DNA from: Escherichia coli
GTDB taxonomy: Bacteria; Pseudomonadota; Gammaproteobacteria; Enterobacterales; Enterobacteriaceae
DNA: 60,030 nucleotides
Assembly (NCBI RefSeq): GCF_003334405.1
Contig: NZ_QOWM01000020.1
Reading direction: 5' to 3' (one strand)
Translations under genes and position numbers: made by a program
The notes under the pieces: model-generated
The model's input: the letters and a program-made list of their open reading frames with translations, nothing else
What the model was told of the DNA's origin: nothing
The model's database searches: none
Part shown: positions 16,391 to 55,359 of the stretch, in pieces
Layout of the letters: every line of letters begins with the position of its first letter
Numbering within the stretch: the first letter of the stretch is position 1

Positions 16391-16439
16391 CCCTTACCTT
16401 TAAAGCGGATGCGATTTATATCGCATAAGAGTGCAGTAC

Positions 16440-16550
16440 TCATGCCGGATGCGGCATGAGTACCATATCCTTCCTGAAAATCGCGCAAATTCTATATATT
16501 GCAGAGATCATGTAGGCCTGATAAGCGAAGCGCATCAGGCAATGTTACAA
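16440..16550. repeat. REP (repetitive extragenic palindrome) elements
   Basis: REP-type palindromes (GCCGGATGCGGC; GTAGGCCTGATAAGCG...CGCATCAGGCA) between convergent glxK and allE. Confidence 0.7.
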
Positions 16551-29360: not shown

Positions 29361-29389
29361 ATTGCCGGATGCGAGTTTTCGCATCCGGT
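29361..29389. terminator. Hairpin between convergent cysS and ybcI (REP-like palindrome, likely bidirectional terminator)
   Basis: CCGGATGCG-agttttc-CGCATCCGG inverted repeat immediately after the cysS stop. Confidence 0.4.
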
Positions 29390-45398: not shown

Positions 45399-46841
45399 TT
45401 AAGCGGGTAATGTGATAACAAACCTTGTCCCCCGCGCATCCGACGTTACCGCAACCGTGCCTTTATGCGCGACAACAATCGATTTCACTATCGCCAGGCC
45501 AATACCGCTACCTTCACCTTTTCGCTGGCGGGAGGGGTCAACGCGATAGAAACGGTCAAACAATCGCGGTAAGTGCTCGGGCGCAATGGGCGTACCGGGG
45601 TTTTCGACGATAACTTGCACCAGGTGATCGACCGTCTGACAGCGCACTACAATTGTCTCTCCGGTTGGCGTATAACGCAGGGCGTTCGAAAGCAGGTTGC
45701 TTAGCGCCCGACGCAGCATCAGCGGATCGCCCGCGACCTGACACTTGTCGCCAACAAACCGCAACTCCACGCCGCGATCTTCCGCTAACGCCTCGAAAAA
45801 ATCGAACACTTTGCCGACTTCATCCGCCAGGTTGAGCATTTTCTTTTCGGGGATTAGCTGGTTGTTATCGGCCTGAGCGAGAAACAGCATATCGCTGACC
45901 ATTTTCGCCATTCGCGTCAGCTCTTCGAGATTAGAGTAGAGCACATCTTCCAGCTCCTTCTGGCTGCGCGACTGGCTGAGGGCGATTTCGGTTTGCGTTA
46001 TGAGATTCGTAATTGGTGTGCGAATTTCGTGAGCGATATCCGCTGAGAAATTGGACTGGCGGGTAAAGACATCCTCAATACGCTCGATCATATGGTTGAA
46101 CGACAGTACCAGCTGTTCCAGCTCAATGGGCACGGTCTGCGGGTCAAGGCGAACGTCGAGATCTTTCGAGGTAATATTCTGGATTTGACGGCTGACGCTG
46201 CGGATCGGCGCGTGACCTTTATGTACCGCCAACAGCACGATAAAGACGATCAGGATGCTGATTACCGATGCGGTCATAATAAGTTTATTCATCAAATCAT
46301 TTATGTAATGAAGATGAAAATCGATCGAAAGCGCGATGTAGAGCGTATAAATCGGTTTGCCGTCAACCAGCGGGCCAACCGGTAAGTTAATCATCCGCCA
46401 GTTGCTGTGTTCCATATGCCCGTGACCGTGCCCTGGCATCATAATCGTCGGGCCGGAAAGGAGATACACCTCGCCGCCCCGCGCGTCTTTATCGGGTATG
46501 GCGTCACGCGTAAACTCGCGGATATCGGGCGCACCGGGGGAGTGATACACCGTTTTACCCTGACTATCTGCCAGGGAAATCAACACATTGGAATAACCAC
46601 TGACGATATCTTCCAGCGTCATTAAGCGTCGGGCTTGCGTTTCGTCAGGGTGATTTAGTACCCGTTCAAGGGTGGCGCTAATCTCTTTTAAATCATTAAT
46701 ATCCTGCTCGGCAAAATGCACTTTTACTGAGTGGATCATGATCCATGCAAAGGCGAAAAACGCCGCGATGGTGGCCAGGCTGATAAAAAAGGTCAGGCGG
46801 GTTGCCAGCGAAAACGGGCGCTGAAATGGCTTACTGACCAT
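45399..46841 (-). CDS. cusS: Copper/silver-sensing histidine kinase
   Basis: ~480 aa; two TM segments, H-box ([10 protein letters not shown]) and HATPase domain; overlaps cusR. Confidence 0.9.
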
Positions 46842-47514
46842 CCGGCACCTCAAGCATGTAACCCACGCCGCGCACGGTTTGAATCAGCTTCGGCTCAAAG
46901 TCGTTGTCGATTTTGCCGCGTAGCCGCTTCACCGCCACATCAATGGCGTTAGTGTCGCTGTCGAAATTCATGTCCCATACCTGCGAGGCGATAAGCGAGC
47001 GGGGCAGCACTTCGCCCTGATGGCGAAGGAAAAACTCCAGCAGAGTAAATTCTTTACTGGTCAGAGTGATGCGCGTGCCGCTGCGGGTGACTTTGCGGCT
47101 GACGAGATCGACCATCAGATCGGCAACCTGAAACTGACTTTCGATAATCACCGCCGCCCCGCGCCGCAGGAGAGTGCGCACCCGCGCCAGCAGTTCAGCA
47201 AAAGCGAACGGCTTCACCAGATAGTCATCGGCCCCCAACTCCAGCCCCTTGACGCGATGTTCAATGGTGCCAAGCGCGGTAAGCAACAGAATCGGCATCC
47301 CTTTATTGGCGGAGCGCAACATGCGCACGATATCCCAGCCGTTCACGTCCGGCAGCATAATATCGAGGATTATCAGGTCATAATCTCCGGTCATCGCCAG
47401 ATGGTAGCCATTCAGCCCGTTGTCGGCCAAATCGACCACAAAACCGGCTTCGGTTAACCCTTTGGTCAAGTATTCTCCGGTTTTCTTTTCATCTTCGACA
47501 ATCAGCAGTTTCAT
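46831..47514 (-). CDS. cusR: OmpR-family response regulator of the cus operon
   Basis: 227 aa; receiver plus winged-helix domain. Confidence 0.9.
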
Positions 47515-47568
47515 ATTTCCTCCACATGTTGCCCGGGCAATTCTAGAGTAGCGGGATCAGATGGCAAT

Positions 47569-47590
47569 CGCTTATTGGCAAAATGACAAT
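47569..47590. promoter_or_regulatory. CusR box in the cusR-cusC divergent promoter
   Basis: Perfect inverted repeat AAAATGACAA-tt-TTGTCATTTT. Confidence 0.7.
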
Positions 47591-47670
47591 TTTGTCATTT
47601 TCCTGTCACCGGAAAATCAGAGGCTGGCGAGTAAAGTTGGCGGCATAAAATCACCAGAAATTATGAGCCT

Positions 47671-49050
47671 ATGTCTCCTTGTAAACTTCTGCCATTTTGT
47701 GTGGCCCTTGCGCTAACCGGTTGTTCACTGGCACCGGATTATCAGCGCCCGGCAATGCCCGTACCGCAGCAGTTCTCACTCAGCCAGAACGGCCTCGTTA
47801 ACGCAGCAGATAACTATCAGAACGCGGGCTGGCGCACCTTTTTTGTTGATAATCAGGTGAAGACGCTGATTAGCGAGGCGCTGGTGAATAACCGGGATTT
47901 GCGCATGGCGACGCTGAAAGTGCAGGAGGCACGGGCGCAATATCGTCTGACTGATGCCGACCGCTACCCACAGCTCAATGGCGAGGGCAGCGGCAGCTGG
48001 AGCGGTAATCTTAAAGGGAATACCGCCACGACACGGGAGTTTTCGACCGGCCTTAACGCCAGCCTTGACCTCGATTTTTTCGGTCGCTTAAAGAACATGA
48101 GCGAAGCCGAGCGACAAAATTATTTAGCCACTGAGGAAGCTCAGCGCGCGGTGCATATTCTGCTGGTTTCTAATGTCGCGCAAAGCTATTTCAATCAGCA
48201 ACTGGCGTATGCGCAATTGCAAATAGCCGAAGAAACGCTGCGTAATTATCAGCAGTCATATGCGTTTGTCGAAAAACAACTGTTGACCGGTAGCAGCAAT
48301 GTTCTGGCGCTGGAACAGGCTCGCGGGGTGATAGAAAGTACCCGCAGTGACATCGCTAAACGTCAGGGGGAACTGGCGCAGGCGAATAATGCATTGCAAC
48401 TGTTATTGGGAAGCTACGGCAAGCTGCCGCAAGCGCAGACAGTAAACAGCGACAGTCTGCAAAGCGTTAAATTACCGGCGGGCTTGTCGTCGCAAATCTT
48501 ATTGCAGCGCCCGGATATTATGGAAGCTGAACACGCGTTAATGGCGGCTAATGCCAATATTGGTGCTGCGCGTGCGGCATTTTTCCCGTCTATCAGCCTG
48601 ACCAGCGGAATATCGACCGCCAGCAGCGATCTGTCGTCATTATTTAACGCCAGCAGCGGGATGTGGAATTTTATACCCAAAATTGAGATCCCCATTTTTA
48701 ATGCCGGACGCAACCAGGCCAATCTGGATATCGCCGAAATTCGCCAGCAGCAGTCGGTAGTGAATTATGAACAGAAAATCCAGAACGCCTTTAAAGAAGT
48801 GGCAGATGCGCTGGCATTACGTCAAAGCCTGAACGATCAAATCAGCGCCCAGCAGCGTTATCTGGCGTCGCTGCAAATTACTTTGCAACGGGCGCGGGCA
48901 TTATATCAGCACGGCGCGGTAAGTTATCTGGAAGTGCTGGATGCCGAGCGTTCTTTATTTGCAACCCGACAAACCTTACTTGACCTGAATTATGCCCGTC
49001 AGGTCAACGAAATTTCTTTATATACCGCACTTGGTGGCGGTTGGCAGTAG
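47671..49050 (+). CDS. cusC: Outer-membrane factor of the Cu/Ag RND efflux system (lipoprotein)
   Basis: 459 aa; lipobox LTGC. Confidence 0.9.
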   Translation: MSPCKLLPFCVALALTGCSLAPDYQRPAMPVPQQFSLSQNGLVNAADNYQNAGWRTFFVDNQVKTLISEALVNNRDLRMATLKVQEARAQYRLTDADRYPQLNGEGSGSWSGNLKGNTATTREFSTGLNASLDLDFFGRLKNMSEAERQNYLATEEAQRAVHILLVSNVAQSYFNQQLAYAQLQIAEETLRNYQQSYAFVEKQLLTGSSNVLALEQARGVIESTRSDIAKRQGELAQANNALQLLLGSYGKLPQAQTVNSDSLQSVKLPAGLSSQILLQRPDIMEAEHALMAANANIGAARAAFFPSISLTSGISTASSDLSSLFNASSGMWNFIPKIEIPIFNAGRNQANLDIAEIRQQQSVVNYEQKIQNAFKEVADALALRQSLNDQISAQQRYLASLQITLQRARALYQHGAVSYLEVLDAERSLFATRQTLLDLNYARQVNEISLYTALGGGWQ

Positions 49051-49076: not shown

Positions 49077-49409
49077 ATGAAAAAAGCACTGCAAGTCGCA
49101 ATGTTCAGTCTGTTTACCGTTATTGGCTTTAATGCCCAGGCTAACGAACATCATCATGAAACCATGAGCGAAGTACAACCGCAGGTTATTAGCGCCACTG
49201 GCGTGGTAAAAGGTGTTGATCTGGAAAGCAAAAAAATCACCATCCATCACGATCCGATTGCTGCCGTGAACTGGCCGGAGATGACCATGCGCTTTACCAT
49301 CACCCCGCAGACGAAAATGAGTGAAATTAAAACCGGCGACAAAGTGGCGTTTAATTTTGTCCAGCAGGGCAACCTTTCTTTATTACAGGATATTAAAGTC
49401 AGCCAGTAA
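49077..49409 (+). CDS. cusF: Periplasmic Cu(I)/Ag(I) metallochaperone
   Basis: 110 aa; signal peptide; His/Met/Trp ligand region. Confidence 0.9.
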   Translation: MKKALQVAMFSLFTVIGFNAQANEHHHETMSEVQPQVISATGVVKGVDLESKKITIHHDPIAAVNWPEMTMRFTITPQTKMSEIKTGDKVAFNFVQQGNLSLLQDIKVSQ

Positions 49410-49424
49410 CCCAGGTTTAATGAT

Positions 49425-50648
49425 ATGAAAAAAATCGCGCTTATTATCGGCAGCATGATCGCGGGCGGTATTATTTCTGCGGCAGGTTTTAACTGGTTTG
49501 CAAAGGCTGAACCGCCCGCAGAAAAAACGTCGACCGCAGAACGTAAAGTCTTATTCTGGTACGACCCGATGTATCCCAATACGCGGTTCGATAAACCAGG
49601 TAAATCGCCGTTTATGGATATGGATCTGGTGCCGAAATATGCCGATGAAGAGAGTTCTGCGTCTGGTGTGCGCATTGACCCGACTCAGACGCAGAATCTG
49701 GGGGTGAAAACGGCTACCGTCACGCGCGGGCCGCTGACTTTTGCCCAGAGTTTCCCGGCGAATGTCAGTTACAACGAGTATCAGTATGCCATTGTGCAGG
49801 CTCGCGCTGCCGGGTTTATCGACAAGGTGTATCCGCTTACCGTGGGCGATAAAGTGCAAAAGGGCACACCGCTTCTCGACCTGACCATTCCCGACTGGGT
49901 GGAAGCGCAGAGTGAGTATTTACTGCTGCGCGAAACCGGCGGTACGGCGACCCAGACTGAAGGCATTCTTGAGCGGCTGCGACTGGCGGGAATGCCGGAG
50001 GCGGATATTCGCCGCCTGATCGCCACGCAAAAAATCCAGACTCGCTTTACGCTCAAAGCGCCCATTGATGGCGTGATCACCGCGTTTGATCTGCGCGCGG
50101 GAATGAATATCGCCAAAGATAACGTGGTCGCGAAAATTCAGGGTATGGACCCGGTGTGGGTCACTGCTGCGATCCCGGAGTCCATCGCCTGGCTGGTGAA
50201 AGATGCCTCGCAGTTTACGCTCACCGTTCCGGCGCGACCTGATAAAACACTCACCATCCGCAAATGGACCCTGCTACCCGGCGTGGATGCCGCGACCCGC
50301 ACGCTACAACTGCGTCTGGAAGTCGACAACGCCGACGAGGCGCTAAAACCAGGCATGAACGCCTGGTTGCAACTCAATACCGCCAGCGAACCGATGCTGC
50401 TCATTCCGTCACAGGCGCTGATTGATACCGGCAACGAACAGCGGGTGATTACCGTTGATGCCGACGGGCGCTTTGTACCGAAACGCGTTGCCGTTTTCCA
50501 GGCATCGCAAGGTGTCACCGCATTACGCTCTGGTCTGGCGGAAGGTGAAAAGGTGGTTTCCAGCGGCCTGTTCCTGATTGATTCCGAAGCCAATATTTCT
50601 GGCGCACTGGAGCGGATGCGCTCTGAAAGTGCTACCCATGCGCATTGA
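49425..50648 (+). CDS. cusB: Membrane fusion protein of the CusCBA efflux pump
   Basis: 407 aa; synteny. Confidence 0.9.
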   Translation: MKKIALIIGSMIAGGIISAAGFNWFAKAEPPAEKTSTAERKVLFWYDPMYPNTRFDKPGKSPFMDMDLVPKYADEESSASGVRIDPTQTQNLGVKTATVTRGPLTFAQSFPANVSYNEYQYAIVQARAAGFIDKVYPLTVGDKVQKGTPLLDLTIPDWVEAQSEYLLLRETGGTATQTEGILERLRLAGMPEADIRRLIATQKIQTRFTLKAPIDGVITAFDLRAGMNIAKDNVVAKIQGMDPVWVTAAIPESIAWLVKDASQFTLTVPARPDKTLTIRKWTLLPGVDAATRTLQLRLEVDNADEALKPGMNAWLQLNTASEPMLLIPSQALIDTGNEQRVITVDADGRFVPKRVAVFQASQGVTALRSGLAEGEKVVSSGLFLIDSEANISGALERMRSESATHAH

Positions 50649-50659
50649 GGGAATAACCA

Positions 50660-53600
50660 ATGATTGAATGGATTATTCGTCGCTCGGTGGCGAACCGTTT
50701 TCTGGTGCTGATGGGCGCGTTATTTCTGAGTATCTGGGGCACCTGGACCATCATTAACACGCCAGTGGATGCGCTGCCGGATCTCTCCGATGTGCAGGTG
50801 ATTATTAAAACCAGCTATCCCGGCCAGGCACCGCAAATCGTTGAAAATCAGGTGACTTATCCGCTAACCACCACCATGTTGTCGGTGCCTGGCGCGAAGA
50901 CTGTGCGTGGTTTCTCGCAGTTTGGCGACTCTTATGTGTATGTCATTTTCGAAGATGGTACCGATCCGTACTGGGCGCGTTCGCGGGTGCTGGAATACCT
51001 CAACCAGGTACAGGGTAAGCTGCCTGCGGGAGTCAGCGCCGAGCTGGGGCCAGATGCCACGGGTGTTGGCTGGATCTATGAATATGCACTGGTGGATCGC
51101 AGCGGTAAGCACGATCTGGCCGATTTACGCTCATTGCAGGACTGGTTTCTCAAATATGAGCTAAAAACCATCCCTGACGTTGCGGAAGTAGCGTCGGTGG
51201 GCGGTGTGGTGAAAGAGTATCAGGTGGTTATCGATCCTCAGCGCCTGGCACAGTATGGCATCAGTCTAGCCGAAGTAAAAAGCGCGCTGGATGCTTCAAA
51301 CCAGGAAGCGGGCGGTTCGTCGATCGAACTGGCGGAAGCGGAATATATGGTGCGCGCCAGCGGCTATCTGCAAACGCTCGACGACTTTAATCACATCGTT
51401 TTAAAAGCCAGTGAAAATGGCGTGCCTGTTTATCTGCGTGATGTTGCGAAGGTCCAGATTGGACCGGAAATGCGCCGGGGCATTGCCGAACTGAACGGCG
51501 AAGGCGAAGTGGCAGGCGGGGTGGTGATCCTGCGCTCCGGCAAAAACGCCCGTGAAGTGATCGCCGCCGTGAAGGACAAACTGGAAACGCTGAAAAGTAG
51601 TCTGCCGGAAGGCGTGGAGATAGTTACAACATACGATCGCAGCCAGCTCATTGACCGCGCCATCGACAACCTCAGCGGCAAGTTGCTGGAAGAGTTTATT
51701 GTGGTGGCGGTAGTCTGTGCGCTGTTTCTCTGGCATGTGCGCTCGGCGCTGGTGGCGATTATTTCGTTGCCGCTGGGGTTGTGTATTGCTTTTATTGTCA
51801 TGCACTTCCAGGGACTGAATGCCAATATTATGTCGTTGGGTGGCATTGCGATTGCCGTCGGGGCGATGGTCGATGCTGCTATCGTCATGATCGAGAATGC
51901 GCATAAACGGCTGGAAGAGTGGCAGCACCAGCATCCTGACGCCACGCTGGATAATAAAACGCGCTGGCAGGTGATCACCGATGCGTCTGTTGAAGTGGGT
52001 CCGGCGTTGTTTATCAGTCTGCTGATTATCACGTTGTCGTTTATCCCGATCTTCACCCTGGAAGGGCAGGAAGGGCGTCTGTTTGGCCCGCTGGCGTTCA
52101 CTAAAACCTATGCGATGGCGGGCGCGGCGCTGCTGGCGATCGTAGTGATCCCGATCCTGATGGGCTACTGGATCCGTGGCAAAATTCCGCCGGAAAGCAG
52201 TAACCCGCTCAATCGCTTTTTGATTCGTGTTTATCATCCTCTATTGCTGAAAGTACTGCACTGGCCGAAAACCACGCTGTTGGTGGCAGCGCTTTCGGTG
52301 CTGACGGTTCTCTGGCCGCTCAATAAAGTTGGCGGGGAATTTTTACCGCAGATCAATGAAGGCGACTTGTTGTATATGCCATCGACGCTGCCGGGGATTT
52401 CCGCAGCAGAGGCGGCGAGTATGCTGCAAAAAACCGACAAGCTAATTATGAGCGTACCTGAAGTGGCGCGGGTATTTGGCAAAACCGGGAAAGCGGAAAC
52501 CGCCACCGATTCTGCTCCGCTGGAGATGGTAGAAACGACCATCCAGCTTAAGCCGCAGGAGCAGTGGCGGCCAGGCATGACGATGGACAAAATCATTGAG
52601 GAACTGGATAACACCGTGCGTCTGCCGGGGCTGGCGAATCTGTGGGTGCCGCCAATTCGTAACCGTATCGATATGCTCTCAACCGGCATTAAAAGCCCCA
52701 TCGGCATTAAAGTTTCCGGCACTGTGCTGGCGGATATCGACGCGATGGCGGAGCAAATTGAAGAAGTGGCACGAACGGTGCCAGGCGTAGCTTCTGCGCT
52801 TGCCGAGCGGCTGGAAGGTGGGCGCTATATCAACGTTGAGATTAACCGTGAAAAAGCCGCACGTTACGGTATGACGGTGGCGGATGTGCAGTTGTTTGTG
52901 ACTTCTGCGGTGGGCGGGGCGATGGTTGGCGAAACGGTGGAAGGGATTGCCCGTTATCCAATTAATCTGCGTTATCCGCAAAGCTGGCGCGATAGTCCGC
53001 AGGCACTGCGCCAGTTGCCGATCCTGACGCCGATGAAGCAGCAAATCACCCTGGCAGACGTGGCCGACGTTAAAGTCTCTACCGGACCGTCGATGCTGAA
53101 AACCGAGAATGCGCGCCCGACGAGCTGGATTTATATCGATGCCCGCGATCGTGACATGGTGTCGGTGGTTCACGATTTGCAAAAAGCGATAGCTGAAAAA
53201 GTGCAGTTAAAACCAGGCACCAGCGTGGCGTTTTCCGGGCAGTTCGAGTTGCTGGAGCGCGCCAACCATAAGCTGAAACTCATGGTGCCGATGACGCTGA
53301 TGATCATCTTCGTGCTGTTGTATCTGGCGTTCCGTCGGGTGGGCGAAGCGTTGCTGATTATCAGCAGCGTACCGTTTGCGCTGGTGGGCGGCATCTGGTT
53401 GCTGTGGTGGATGGGCTTTCATCTTTCCGTGGCGACGGGCACTGGCTTTATCGCCCTCGCCGGGGTCGCCGCCGAATTTGGCGTGGTGATGCTGATGTAT
53501 TTACGTCACGCCATAGAGGCCGAGCCGTCGTTGAATAATCCGCAAACATTCAGTGAGCAGAAGCTGGATGAGGCGTTGTATCACGGCGCGGTACTGCGCG

Positions 53601-53803
53601 TGCGCCCGAAAGCGATGACGGTGGCGGTGATTATCGCCGGTCTGCTGCCGATTCTGTGGGGAACGGGGGCTGGTTCAGAGGTGATGAGCCGGATTGCCGC
53701 ACCGATGATTGGCGGCATGATCACCGCACCTTTGCTGTCGCTGTTTATTATCCCGGCGGCGTATAAGCTGATGTGGCTGCACCGACATCGGGTACGGAAA
53801 TAA
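50660..53803 (+). CDS. cusA: RND heavy-metal efflux transporter
   Basis: 1047 aa, 12-TM RND architecture. Confidence 0.95.
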
Positions 53804-53904: not shown

Positions 53905-55281
53905 GTGAAAAACGCGTCAACCGTATCGGAAGATACTGCGTCGAATCAAGAGCCGACGCTTCATCGCGGATTACATAACCGTCATATTCAACTGATTGCG
54001 CTGGGTGGCGCAATTGGTACTGGTCTGTTTCTTGGCATTGGTCCGGCGATTCAGATGGCGGGTCCGGCTGTATTGCTGGGCTACGGCGTCGCCGGGATCA
54101 TCGCTTTCCTGATTATGCGCCAGCTTGGCGAGATGGTGGTCGAAGAGCCGGTATCCGGTTCATTTGCCCACTTTGCCTATAAATACTGGGGACCGTTTGC
54201 GGGCTTCCTCTCTGGCTGGAACTACTGGGTAATGTTCGTGCTGGTGGGAATGGCAGAGCTGACCGCTGCGGGCATCTATATGCAGTACTGGTTCCCGGAT
54301 GTTCCAACGTGGATTTGGGCTGCCGCCTTCTTTATTATCATCAACGCCGTTAACCTGGTGAACGTGCGCTTATATGGCGAAACCGAGTTCTGGTTTGCGT
54401 TGATTAAAGTGCTGGCAATCATCGGTATGATCGGCTTTGGCCTGTGGCTGCTGTTTTCTGGTCACGGCGGCGAGAAAGCCAGTATCGACAACCTCTGGCG
54501 CTACGGTGGTTTCTTCGCCACCGGCTGGAATGGGCTGATTTTGTCGCTGGCGGTAATTATGTTCTCCTTCGGCGGTCTGGAGCTGATTGGGATTACTGCC
54601 GCTGAAGCGCGCGATCCGGAAAAAAGCATTCCAAAAGCGGTAAATCAGGTGGTGTATCGCATCCTGCTGTTTTACATCGGTTCACTGGTGGTTTTACTGG
54701 CGCTCTATCCGTGGGTGGAAGTGAAATCCAACAGTAGCCCGTTTGTGATGATTTTCCATAATCTCGACAGCAACGTGGTAGCTTCTGCGCTGAACTTCGT
54801 CATTCTGGTAGCATCGCTGTCAGTGTATAACAGCGGGGTTTACTCTAACAGCCGCATGCTGTTTGGCCTTTCTGTGCAGGGTAATGCGCCGAAGTTTTTG
54901 ACTCGCGTCAGCCGTCGCGGTGTGCCGATTAACTCGCTGATGCTTTCCGGAGCGATCACTTCGCTGGTGGTGTTAATCAACTATCTGCTGCCGCAAAAAG
55001 CGTTTGGTCTGCTGATGGCGCTGGTGGTAGCAACGCTGCTGTTGAACTGGATTATGATCTGTCTGGCGCATCTGCGTTTTCGTGCAGCGATGCGACGTCA
55101 GGGGCGTGAAACACAGTTTAAGGCGCTGCTCTATCCGTTCGGCAACTATCTCTGCATTGCCTTCCTCGGCATGATTTTGCTGCTGATGTGCACGATGGAT
55201 GATATGCGCTTGTCAGCGATCCTGCTGCCGGTGTGGATTGTATTCCTGTTTATGGCATTTAAAACGCTGCGTCGGAAATAA
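53905..55281 (+). CDS. pheP: Phenylalanine-specific permease (APC family)
   Basis: ~458 aa from GTG 53905 (VKNASTVSEDT...), RBS-like GGGGAAAGG upstream. Confidence 0.85.
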   Translation: MKNASTVSEDTASNQEPTLHRGLHNRHIQLIALGGAIGTGLFLGIGPAIQMAGPAVLLGYGVAGIIAFLIMRQLGEMVVEEPVSGSFAHFAYKYWGPFAGFLSGWNYWVMFVLVGMAELTAAGIYMQYWFPDVPTWIWAAAFFIIINAVNLVNVRLYGETEFWFALIKVLAIIGMIGFGLWLLFSGHGGEKASIDNLWRYGGFFATGWNGLILSLAVIMFSFGGLELIGITAAEARDPEKSIPKAVNQVVYRILLFYIGSLVVLLALYPWVEVKSNSSPFVMIFHNLDSNVVASALNFVILVASLSVYNSGVYSNSRMLFGLSVQGNAPKFLTRVSRRGVPINSLMLSGAITSLVVLINYLLPQKAFGLLMALVVATLLLNWIMICLAHLRFRAAMRRQGRETQFKALLYPFGNYLCIAFLGMILLLMCTMDDMRLSAILLPVWIVFLFMAFKTLRRK

Positions 55282-55323: not shown

Positions 55324-55359
55324 AACCGCTCTCATCCATTCGATGAGAGCGGTTTTTTT
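55324..55359. terminator. Bidirectional rho-independent terminator between convergent pheP and ybdG
   Basis: AACCGCTCTCATC-cattc-GATGAGAGCGGTT followed by a run of seven T. Confidence 0.7.

What the first reader, a model, noticed from the sequence alone, without database searches (positions are those of the whole stretch)
47569..47590. Perfect 10-2-10 palindrome (CusR box) in the cusR-cusC divergent promoter
AAAATGACAA-tt-TTGTCATTTT lies between the divergently transcribed cusRS and cusCFBA operons and matches the binding site for the phosphorylated CusR response regulator that controls both.
Basis: partly seen in the sequence, partly recalled or inferred. Interest (0 to 1): 0.3.

Follow-up and report, generated by a model that had tools for sequence, protein, structure and literature searches.

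The report
Known CusR operator in E. coli

Summary
The perfect 10-2-10 palindrome AAAATGACAA-TT-TTGTCATTTT exists, but at window 47580-47601, not 47569-47590. It is the only match in the 60 kb window to the published CusR-box consensus AAAATGACAANNTTGTCATTTT, even with 3 mismatches (0 of 100 shuffles). The window is E. coli chromosome. The palindrome lies mid-way in the 156-bp spacer between cusR (minus strand) and cusC (plus strand). Both are annotated in RefSeq and confirmed by NCBIfam models. The box-bearing 30-mer is exact in 5148 of 5426 complete E. coli genomes and identical in K-12. The literature reports CusR and HprR binding to this spacer and copper-dependent cusC activation. The core ATKACA-N4-TGTMAT recurs 42-115 bp upstream of CusR/CopR/SilR homologues across Proteobacteria and almost nowhere else in those loci. 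One addition: a third half-site (TGTCAC, 47604-47609) lies 11 bp from the right arm, and a -10-like hexamer (TAAAGT, 47632-47637) lies 22 bp further. Both are conserved in phase in distant relatives. This suggests the palindrome is part of a longer operator locked to the cusC promoter. That is an inference, not a demonstrated mechanism.

The parts
47580..47601 (.). CusR box: perfect inverted repeat AAAATGACAA-TT-TTGTCATTTT (arms 47580-47589 and 47592-47601; conserved core ATGACA-N4-TGTCAT at 47583-47598)
   Evidence: Searches show the sequence and its uniqueness. One search finds the box-bearing 30-mer exact in 5148 of 5426 E. coli genomes. One search shows it conserved in K-12, Citrobacter and the sil plasmid. 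One search shows the family-wide core. Searches give the literature.
47604..47609 (+). Third half-site TGTCAC, in direct repeat with the right arm core TGTCAT (47593-47598), 11 bp start to start. Inferred extension of the operator on the cusC side.
   Evidence: CCTGTCACC is invariant in E. coli, Citrobacter werkmanii and the silC/silR spacer. In 20 non-enterobacterial CusR-homologue loci, GTCA is exact at this offset in 12 of 20, against at most 2 of 20 at any other offset. Function is inferred, not shown.
47632..47637 (+). TAAAGT, candidate -10 hexamer of the cusC promoter. It has no good -35, as expected for an activator-dependent promoter.
   Evidence: Invariant in the alignment. An nAnnnT hexamer sits at the same offset from the box in 15 of 20 distant loci, against at most 5 of 20 elsewhere. 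The start site was not measured here; a start near 47644 is an inference.
47540..47567 (-). Candidate sigma-70 promoter of cusRS: TTGCCA (47567-47562), 16-nt spacer, TAGAAT (47545-47540)
   Evidence: Consensus scan, 10 of 12 matches. The -10 block CAATTCTAG is invariant in the alignment. Not verified experimentally here.
46831..47514 (-). cusR, OmpR/PhoB-family response regulator that binds the box
   Evidence: RefSeq annotation of an identical genome. NCBIfam NF007346 equivalog, 507.9 bits against a cut-off of 420.
45399..46841 (-). cusS, Cu(I)/Ag(I) sensor histidine kinase
   Evidence: RefSeq annotation. NCBIfam NF007345, 984 bits.
47671..49050 (+). cusC, outer-membrane channel, first gene of cusCFBA
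49077..49409 (+). cusF, periplasmic metallochaperone
49425..50648 (+). cusB, periplasmic adaptor
50660..53803 (+). cusA, RND permease

Best explanation
The palindrome at 47580-47601 is the CusR box, the operator of the E. coli copper/silver two-component system. CusS senses periplasmic Cu(I)/Ag(I) and phosphorylates CusR. A CusR dimer bound to the two ATGACA/TGTCAT half-sites then activates the weak cusCFBA promoter on one side and raises transcription of cusRS on the other. The paralogous regulator HprR (YedW) recognises the same sequence, so peroxide/hypochlorite signalling can feed into the same site. Binding and copper dependence are shown in the literature for the identical K-12 sequence. 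Identity, location and conservation are shown here. Two points are inferred here. The operator extends by a third half-site (47604-47609) to about position -38 of the cusC promoter. The cusC -10 is TAAAGT (47632-47637), so the promoter-proximal CusR contact would be of the -35-replacing kind seen with PhoB-type regulators.
For: The site is an exact and unique match to the published consensus (consensus quoted in 10.1101/2023.09.26.559466). The flanking genes are cusRS and cusCFBA. The K-12 box is identical. The 30-mer carrying the box is exact in 5148 of 5426 complete E. coli genomes. One variant found changes only the central NN dinucleotide (O39:H21). Literature read here reports a single CusR ChIP-chip peak in this spacer, gSELEX peaks for CusR and HprR in this spacer, cusR and cusC both up in activating cusS mutants, and copper-dependent cusC promoter activity in Reg-Seq, attributed to CusR. 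Comparative footprint: all 11 exact ATKACA-N4-TGTMAT sites in 426 kb of CusR-homologue loci lie 42-115 bp upstream of the regulator gene. With one mismatch allowed, there are 21 hits in 15,089 upstream positions against 11 in 407,980 elsewhere, about 50-fold enrichment. The divergent neighbours there are copper-resistance genes: CopA oxidases, CopI, CusF-like and TolC-family proteins. The sil plasmid has the same core between silC and silR and again upstream of silE. The third half-site and the -10 hexamer are conserved in phase.
Against: Nothing here contradicts the identification. Four limits apply. No binding or expression experiment can be run with these tools. The primary papers (Munson 2000; Yamamoto and Ishihama 2005; Urano 2017) are not in the held library, so they are cited second-hand. 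The transcription start sites were not verified. PMC8249747 describes unphosphorylated CusR as bound to this spacer and as repressing cusCFBA without inducer, so phospho-CusR-only binding is too simple. OmpR/PhoB-family regulators usually bind direct repeats, so how a dimer sits on an inverted repeat is not settled. No CusR-DNA structure was found by sequence search of the PDB.
Confidence: 0.95

Rival explanations
1. For cusC activation the working unit is not the palindrome as such. It is the direct repeat TGTCAT-N5-TGTCAC (47593-47609), bound head-to-tail as in PhoB, PmrA and PhoP. The left arm of the palindrome would mainly serve the oppositely oriented cusR promoter or a second dimer.
For: Hexamer-N5-hexamer with an 11-bp period is the usual geometry of OmpR/PhoB-family sites (established knowledge). 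The third half-site is invariant in enteric and sil loci and present in phase in 12 of 20 distant loci. It sits a fixed 22 bp from a conserved -10-like hexamer. CopR footprints in P. putida span 27-47 bp and contain several TGACA-like half-sites (PMC12428095).
Against: Published work defines the site as the inverted repeat. In a Pseudomonas CusR system, a 4-base mutation of the palindrome abolished activation of the cusRS promoter (10.1101/2023.09.26.559466). The left arm is as strongly conserved as the right. No mirror-image extra half-site exists on the cusR side in E. coli.
Confidence: 0.3
2. The site is chiefly an HprR (YedW) operator, with CusR binding secondary.
For: The single strong gSELEX peak of HprR lies in this spacer, with higher affinity than at its own hprR/hiuH spacer (PMC8249747).
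Against: The adjacent regulator is CusR. Copper induction of cusC requires CusRS (PMC8966772). The CusR ChIP-chip peak is here. Distant CusR/CopR homologues carry the same core next to their own genes. The two readings are complementary rather than exclusive.
Confidence: 0.04
3. The palindrome acts through nucleic-acid structure (cruciform, RNA hairpin or terminator) rather than as a protein-binding site, or it is a chance palindrome.
For: The single strand folds better than shuffles (-7.3 kcal/mol, z = -3.8), as any perfect palindrome must.
Against: The stem is A+T-rich, has no T-run context and lies upstream of both promoters. No terminator-like site and no Rfam match was found. Distant relatives keep the half-site sequence itself (ATKACA/TGTMAT) rather than merely keeping complementarity through compensatory changes. 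A chance origin is excluded by the exact match to a pre-defined 20-base consensus.
Confidence: 0.01

Closest known systems
E. coli K-12 CusR box (AAAATGACAANNTTGTCATTTT; Munson et al. 2000 and Yamamoto and Ishihama 2005, as cited)
   Same: The 22-bp sequence is identical, in the same spacer between cusR and cusC, with the same flanking genes.
   Different: Nothing in the box differs. Compared with K-12, this strain differs just outside it: C for T at 47602, G for C at 47623 and A for G at 47524.
HprR/CusR box of the hprR-hiuH spacer (CATTACAAAATTGTAATG; PMC9302797)
   Same: It has the same half-site family (ATTACA/TGTAAT against ATGACA/TGTCAT) and the same N4 spacing. It is bound by both CusR and HprR.
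   Different: It is at a different locus, not in this window. It uses the T variant of the half-site and has lower HprR affinity according to PMC8249747.
Copper boxes of the plasmid sil/pco systems and of Pseudomonas CopR/CusR
   Same: The core ATKACA-N4-TGTMAT lies upstream of the regulator gene and faces a divergent copper-resistance gene. The third half-site and the -10 spacing are shared.
   Different: The A/T-rich outer flanks (AAA...TTT) of the E. coli box are not conserved outside enterics. The regulated genes differ (copA, copI, pcoE, silE).
Pho box / PmrA box (direct-repeat operators of OmpR/PhoB-family regulators)
   Same: The regulator family is the same. The 11-bp spacing between the right arm and the third half-site, and a promoter without a good -35, resemble these sites.
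   Different: The defining element here is an inverted repeat, not a direct repeat. No structural or footprint evidence was obtained here.

Membership tests
CusR box (E. coli CusR/HprR operator) | Sequence matches AAAATGACAANNTTGTCATTTT | tested here: met
   20 of 20 specified bases match at 47580-47601. It is the only match in the window with up to 3 mismatches, and 0 of 100 shuffles match.
CusR box (E. coli CusR/HprR operator) | Lies in the spacer between the divergent cusRS and cusCFBA operons | tested here: met
   The spacer is 47515-47670. Gene identities come from RefSeq annotation of 100%-identical genomes and from NCBIfam models above cut-off.
CusR box (E. coli CusR/HprR operator) | Identical to the site in the strain used for the experiments (K-12) | tested here: met
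   Alignment with NC_000913.3 shows no difference within the box.
CusR box (E. coli CusR/HprR operator) | Bound by CusR (and HprR) in vitro and in vivo | not testable with these tools
   Literature only: ChIP-chip (10.1101/2020.08.17.251918) and gSELEX (PMC8249747).
CusR box (E. coli CusR/HprR operator) | Required for copper-induced transcription of cusC and cusR | not testable with these tools
   Literature only: copper-dependent cusC promoter activity in Reg-Seq, attributed to CusR (PMC12132413), and CusRS dependence of PcusC-gfp (PMC8966772). The primary deletion analysis (Munson 2000) could not be read.
Copper box of the CusR/CopR/PcoR/SilR regulator family | Inverted-repeat core TGACA-N4-TGTCA upstream of the regulator gene, conserved among homologous loci | tested here: met
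   All 11 exact sites are upstream of the regulator gene. With one mismatch allowed, 21 of 15,089 upstream positions match against 11 of 407,980 elsewhere. The consensus is quoted in PMC12428095.
Copper box of the CusR/CopR/PcoR/SilR regulator family | Cognate regulator belongs to the heavy-metal response regulator subfamily | tested here: met
   TIGR01387 cztR_silR_copR, 323.9 bits against a cut-off of 279.2.
Direct-repeat operators of OmpR/PhoB-family regulators (pho-box type) | Two or more half-sites in the same orientation about 10-11 bp apart, overlapping or replacing the -35 | tested here: inconclusive
   TGTCAT (47593) and TGTCAC (47604) are 11 bp apart and conserved in phase. However, the defining element of the site is the inverted repeat, and neither occupancy nor the start site was measured.

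The most novel reading that the evidence does not exclude
The CusR/CopR copper box may be a conserved composite operator rather than a simple palindrome. The arrangement would be ATKACA-N4-TGTMAT-N5-TGTCA, followed in many loci by a weaker TGnCAG 11 bp further on. The whole unit would be fixed 22 bp upstream of the -10 hexamer of the target promoter. The promoter-proximal pair would then form a PhoB-like direct repeat that replaces the -35, while the distal arm serves the divergent regulator promoter or a second dimer. If so, one operator would drive two promoters by two different geometries. The P. putida footprint paper already notes multiple half-sites, so part of this may be described elsewhere.
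Probability: 0.35. Interest if true: 0.3.

Novelty: already known. Interest (0 to 1): 0.08.

Why it matters
It matters little as a discovery. The site is a textbook operator of E. coli copper/silver homeostasis, and it is one of the few regulators reported to have essentially a single chromosomal target. The check is useful for three reasons. It corrects the coordinates. It shows the box is nearly invariant across more than 5000 E. coli genomes. It also shows that the conserved unit across Proteobacteria is longer than the palindrome and is phased with the target promoter, which bears on how an OmpR/PhoB-type regulator uses an inverted repeat. The same site is relevant to copper and silver resistance, because the sil and pco plasmids use the same box.

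Tried and rejected
(1) RNA element: an Rfam scan of 47300-47900 at E up to 1 gave nothing. The terminator scan gave nothing. The DNA hairpin is weak. This reading was rejected.

(2) Chance palindrome: rejected on the exact match to a pre-defined consensus. Perfect 10-nt-arm palindromes as a class are not rare enough to argue from.

(3) My first family-motif scan used the wrong spacer (N6) and found nothing. It was corrected to N4.

(4) The primary papers were requested by PubMed id and are not held: Munson 2000, Yamamoto and Ishihama 2005, Urano 2017. The published footprint limits and start sites therefore could not be checked. From memory, the box is centred near -53.5 of the cusC promoter. 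That would fit TAAAGT as the -10, but it is unverified.

(5) A second box-like site in the window, 53970-53985 (ATTACATAACCGTCAT, one mismatch), lies inside pheP. It is within chance expectation, since 6 of 100 shuffles reach 2 hits.

(6) A mirror-image extra half-site on the cusR side is absent in E. coli and present only in some distant loci.

(7) A sequence search of the PDB found no CusR-DNA complex. Only distant relatives and the PcoR DNA-binding domain were found.

Full report
**Observation**

The repeat finder reports arms 47580-47589 and 47592-47601, 10 nt each, 100% complementary, 2 nt apart.

A search with AAAATGACAANNTTGTCATTTT, allowing up to 3 mismatches, finds this one site in the 60,030-base window. 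It finds none in 100 dinucleotide-preserving shuffles.

Perfect palindromes with 10-nt arms and spacers of 0-6 occur 4 distinct times in the window, against 0.52 expected. One third of Markov simulations hold at least one. The shape alone is therefore weak evidence. The exact match to a pre-defined operator sequence is strong evidence.

**Context**

The 601 bases around the site are 100% identical to several complete E. coli chromosomes and occur in 5337 of 5426 complete genomes. In the RefSeq annotation of an identical genome the order is nfrA, nrfB, cusS, cusR on the minus strand, then cusC, cusF, cusB, cusA, pheP on the plus strand.

In window coordinates:
- cusR is 46831-47514 (minus strand).
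- cusC is 47671-49050 (plus strand).
- The spacer is 47515-47670 (156 bp).
- The box centre, 47590.5, is almost in the middle of the spacer.

NCBIfam models confirm all six proteins above their curated cut-offs. CusR scores 507.9 bits against 420 for the copper/silver response regulator equivalog. It also exceeds the cut-off of the heavy-metal response regulator subfamily TIGR01387.

**What is known**

A preprint on Pseudomonas copper regulation states that E. coli CusR preferentially binds the palindrome AAAATGACAAnnTTGTCATTTT between the divergent cusRS and cusC(F)BA operons. It adds that no other chromosomal site could be identified, and that the plasmid gene pcoE carries TGACAAnnTTGTCAT (10.1101/2023.09.26.559466).

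Other papers read here report the following:
- A ChIP-chip study found one CusR peak, in this spacer, at 2 mM copper (10.1101/2020.08.17.251918).
- Genomic SELEX found a single peak in this spacer for unphosphorylated CusR and more than ten targets after phosphorylation.
- The same SELEX study found a single strong peak in this spacer for HprR, which recognises the same sequence with a different affinity (PMC8249747).
- The second CusR/HprR box, at hprR-hiuH, is CATTACAAAATTGTAATG (PMC9302797).
- Activating cusS mutations raise both cusR and cusC (PMC10920338).
- Reg-Seq finds cusC promoter activity at 2 mM copper (and in single replicates of two other conditions), which its authors attribute to CusR activation (PMC12132413).
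- PcusC-gfp needs CusRS (PMC8966772).

The K-12 spacer fetched here has the identical 22-mer. The primary papers are not in the held library and are cited second-hand.

**Conservation within E. coli**

A 30-mer ending at the last base of the box (47572-47601) has an exact match of at least 28 bases in 5148 of 5426 genomes.

A 30-mer shifted 4 bases to the right matches only 3404 genomes. This is because 47602, just outside the box, is polymorphic: C here and T in K-12.

One sampled variant (O39:H21) changes the central TT to TC, that is, the unspecified NN of the consensus.

**Conservation beyond E. coli**

A scan of one genome per species with the CusR protein returned 80 loci with 45-98% identical regulators.

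The core ATKACA-N4-TGTMAT occurs exactly 11 times in the 426 kb of those loci. All 11 lie 42-115 bp upstream of the regulator gene. With one mismatch allowed there are 21 hits in 15,089 upstream positions and 11 in 407,980 others.

The genes facing the regulator across the box are copper-resistance genes: CopA multicopper oxidases, CopI cuproproteins, a CusF-like protein and a TolC-family channel.

An IncHI2 sil plasmid has ATGACAATGTTGTCAT between silC and silR, and ATGACAAAGATGTCAT upstream of silE. The E. coli site is thus the local member of a family-wide copper box.

The alignment of E. coli strains, Citrobacter werkmanii and the silC/silR spacer shows three invariant blocks besides the box:
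- CCTGTCACC, directly after the box.
- TAAAGT at 47632-47637.
- CAATTCTAG on the cusR side.

TGTCAC (47604-47609) repeats the right-arm core TGTCAT (47593-47598) in the same orientation, 11 bp away.

I then examined 20 non-enterobacterial loci whose flanks are otherwise unalignable (mean 27% ungapped identity). The window was left out of this set. The results were:
- GTCA is exact at this offset in 12 of 20, against at most 2 of 20 at any other offset.
- An nAnnnT hexamer sits at the offset of TAAAGT in 15 of 20, against at most 5 of 20 elsewhere.
- A weaker G..AG, 11 bp further on, is also frequent.

The spacing from the third half-site to the -10-like hexamer is 22 bp (21 in one locus) in 19 of the 23 sequences compared; four loci show no such hexamer.

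I infer that TAAAGT is the cusC -10 and that the start is near 47644. The half-sites would then be centred near -58, -48 and -37. The promoter has no usable -35 (CCGGAA at the expected place), as expected for an activator-dependent promoter.

On the other side, the consensus scan finds a good sigma-70 promoter for cusR: TTGCCA, 16-nt spacer, TAGAAT at 47567-47540. This would put the box centre about 57 bp upstream of the cusR start, a class I-like position. None of these start sites was measured here.

**Mechanism**

Established by the literature for the identical sequence: CusS senses periplasmic Cu(I)/Ag(I) and phosphorylates CusR. CusR binds this spacer. cusCFBA and cusRS are induced. HprR shares the site.

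Shown here: the identity, location, uniqueness and conservation of the site.

Inferred here: the operator extends to a third half-site and is phase-locked to the cusC -10. This fits the long CopR footprints with several TGACA-like half-sites reported in P. putida (PMC12428095).

How an OmpR/PhoB-family dimer, which normally binds direct repeats, sits on an inverted repeat remains open. No CusR-DNA structure is in the PDB by sequence search.

**Rivals**

A structural (hairpin or terminator) role is very unlikely. There is no terminator-like site and no Rfam match, and the stem is weak and A+T-rich. Relatives conserve the half-site sequence itself rather than only its complementarity.

An HprR-first reading is complementary rather than a true alternative.

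The reading in which the direct repeat is the working unit for cusC is plausible but untested. It sits inside the main explanation rather than against it.

**Verdict**

The feature is already known. Interest is low. The only mildly new element is the conserved, phased third half-site and -10 hexamer.

Noticed in passing
window 47604-47609 (and 47632-47637): A third half-site TGTCAC lies 11 bp from the right arm. A -10-like TAAAGT lies 22 bp further on. Both are invariant in enteric and sil loci and conserved in phase in distant CusR/CopR loci: GTCA in 12 of 20 and nAnnnT in 15 of 20, against at most 2 and 5 of 20 at other offsets.
   Followed up: yes
window 47615-47620: A weaker fourth element (AATCAG here, TGnCAG in relatives) lies another 11 bp downstream of the third half-site. 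G at core offset +33 and G at +37 each occur in 18 of 21 sequences. In E. coli it is degenerate. Its role is unknown; it lies in the spacer between the expected -35 and the -10.
   Followed up: partly
L086 8915-8930 and 11164-11179 (Salmonella plasmid pSH111_227, NC_019114.1): The sil silver-resistance cluster carries two copper boxes, one between silC and silR and one upstream of silE. The silC/silR spacer also keeps CCTGTCACC and TAAAGT at the same spacing as the cus locus.
   Followed up: partly
window 47524, 47602, 47623: Three single-base differences from K-12 lie in the spacer, all outside the box: A for G next to the cusR Shine-Dalgarno sequence, C for T one base after the box, and G for C between the third half-site and the -10. 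Position 47602 splits E. coli genomes roughly 3400 to 1750.
   Followed up: partly
L084 (E. coli O39:H21, NZ_CP062865.1), position equivalent to window 47591: A natural variant of the box has the central TT changed to TC. This is the unspecified NN of the consensus, consistent with no constraint there.
   Followed up: no
window 16437-16462, 29365-29388, 55327-55351: Three other perfect inverted repeats with arms of 10 nt or more: TACTCATGCCGGATGCGGCATGAGTA, CCGGATGCGAGTTTTCGCATCCGG and CGCTCTCATCCATTCGATGAGAGCG. They are G+C-rich and look like REP elements or terminator stems. They were not examined.
   Followed up: no
window 53970-53985: ATTACATAACCGTCAT matches the copper-box core with one mismatch. 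It lies inside the pheP coding sequence and is within chance expectation (6 of 100 shuffles give 2 hits).
   Followed up: partly
E. coli plasmids (e.g. NZ_OY754386.1, 42.7 kb): Five of the E. coli matches to the cusR-cusC spacer are on records labelled as plasmids, one with a 100% identical CusR. These may be mis-assigned chromosomal contigs or a mobilised cus locus. They were not examined.
   Followed up: no
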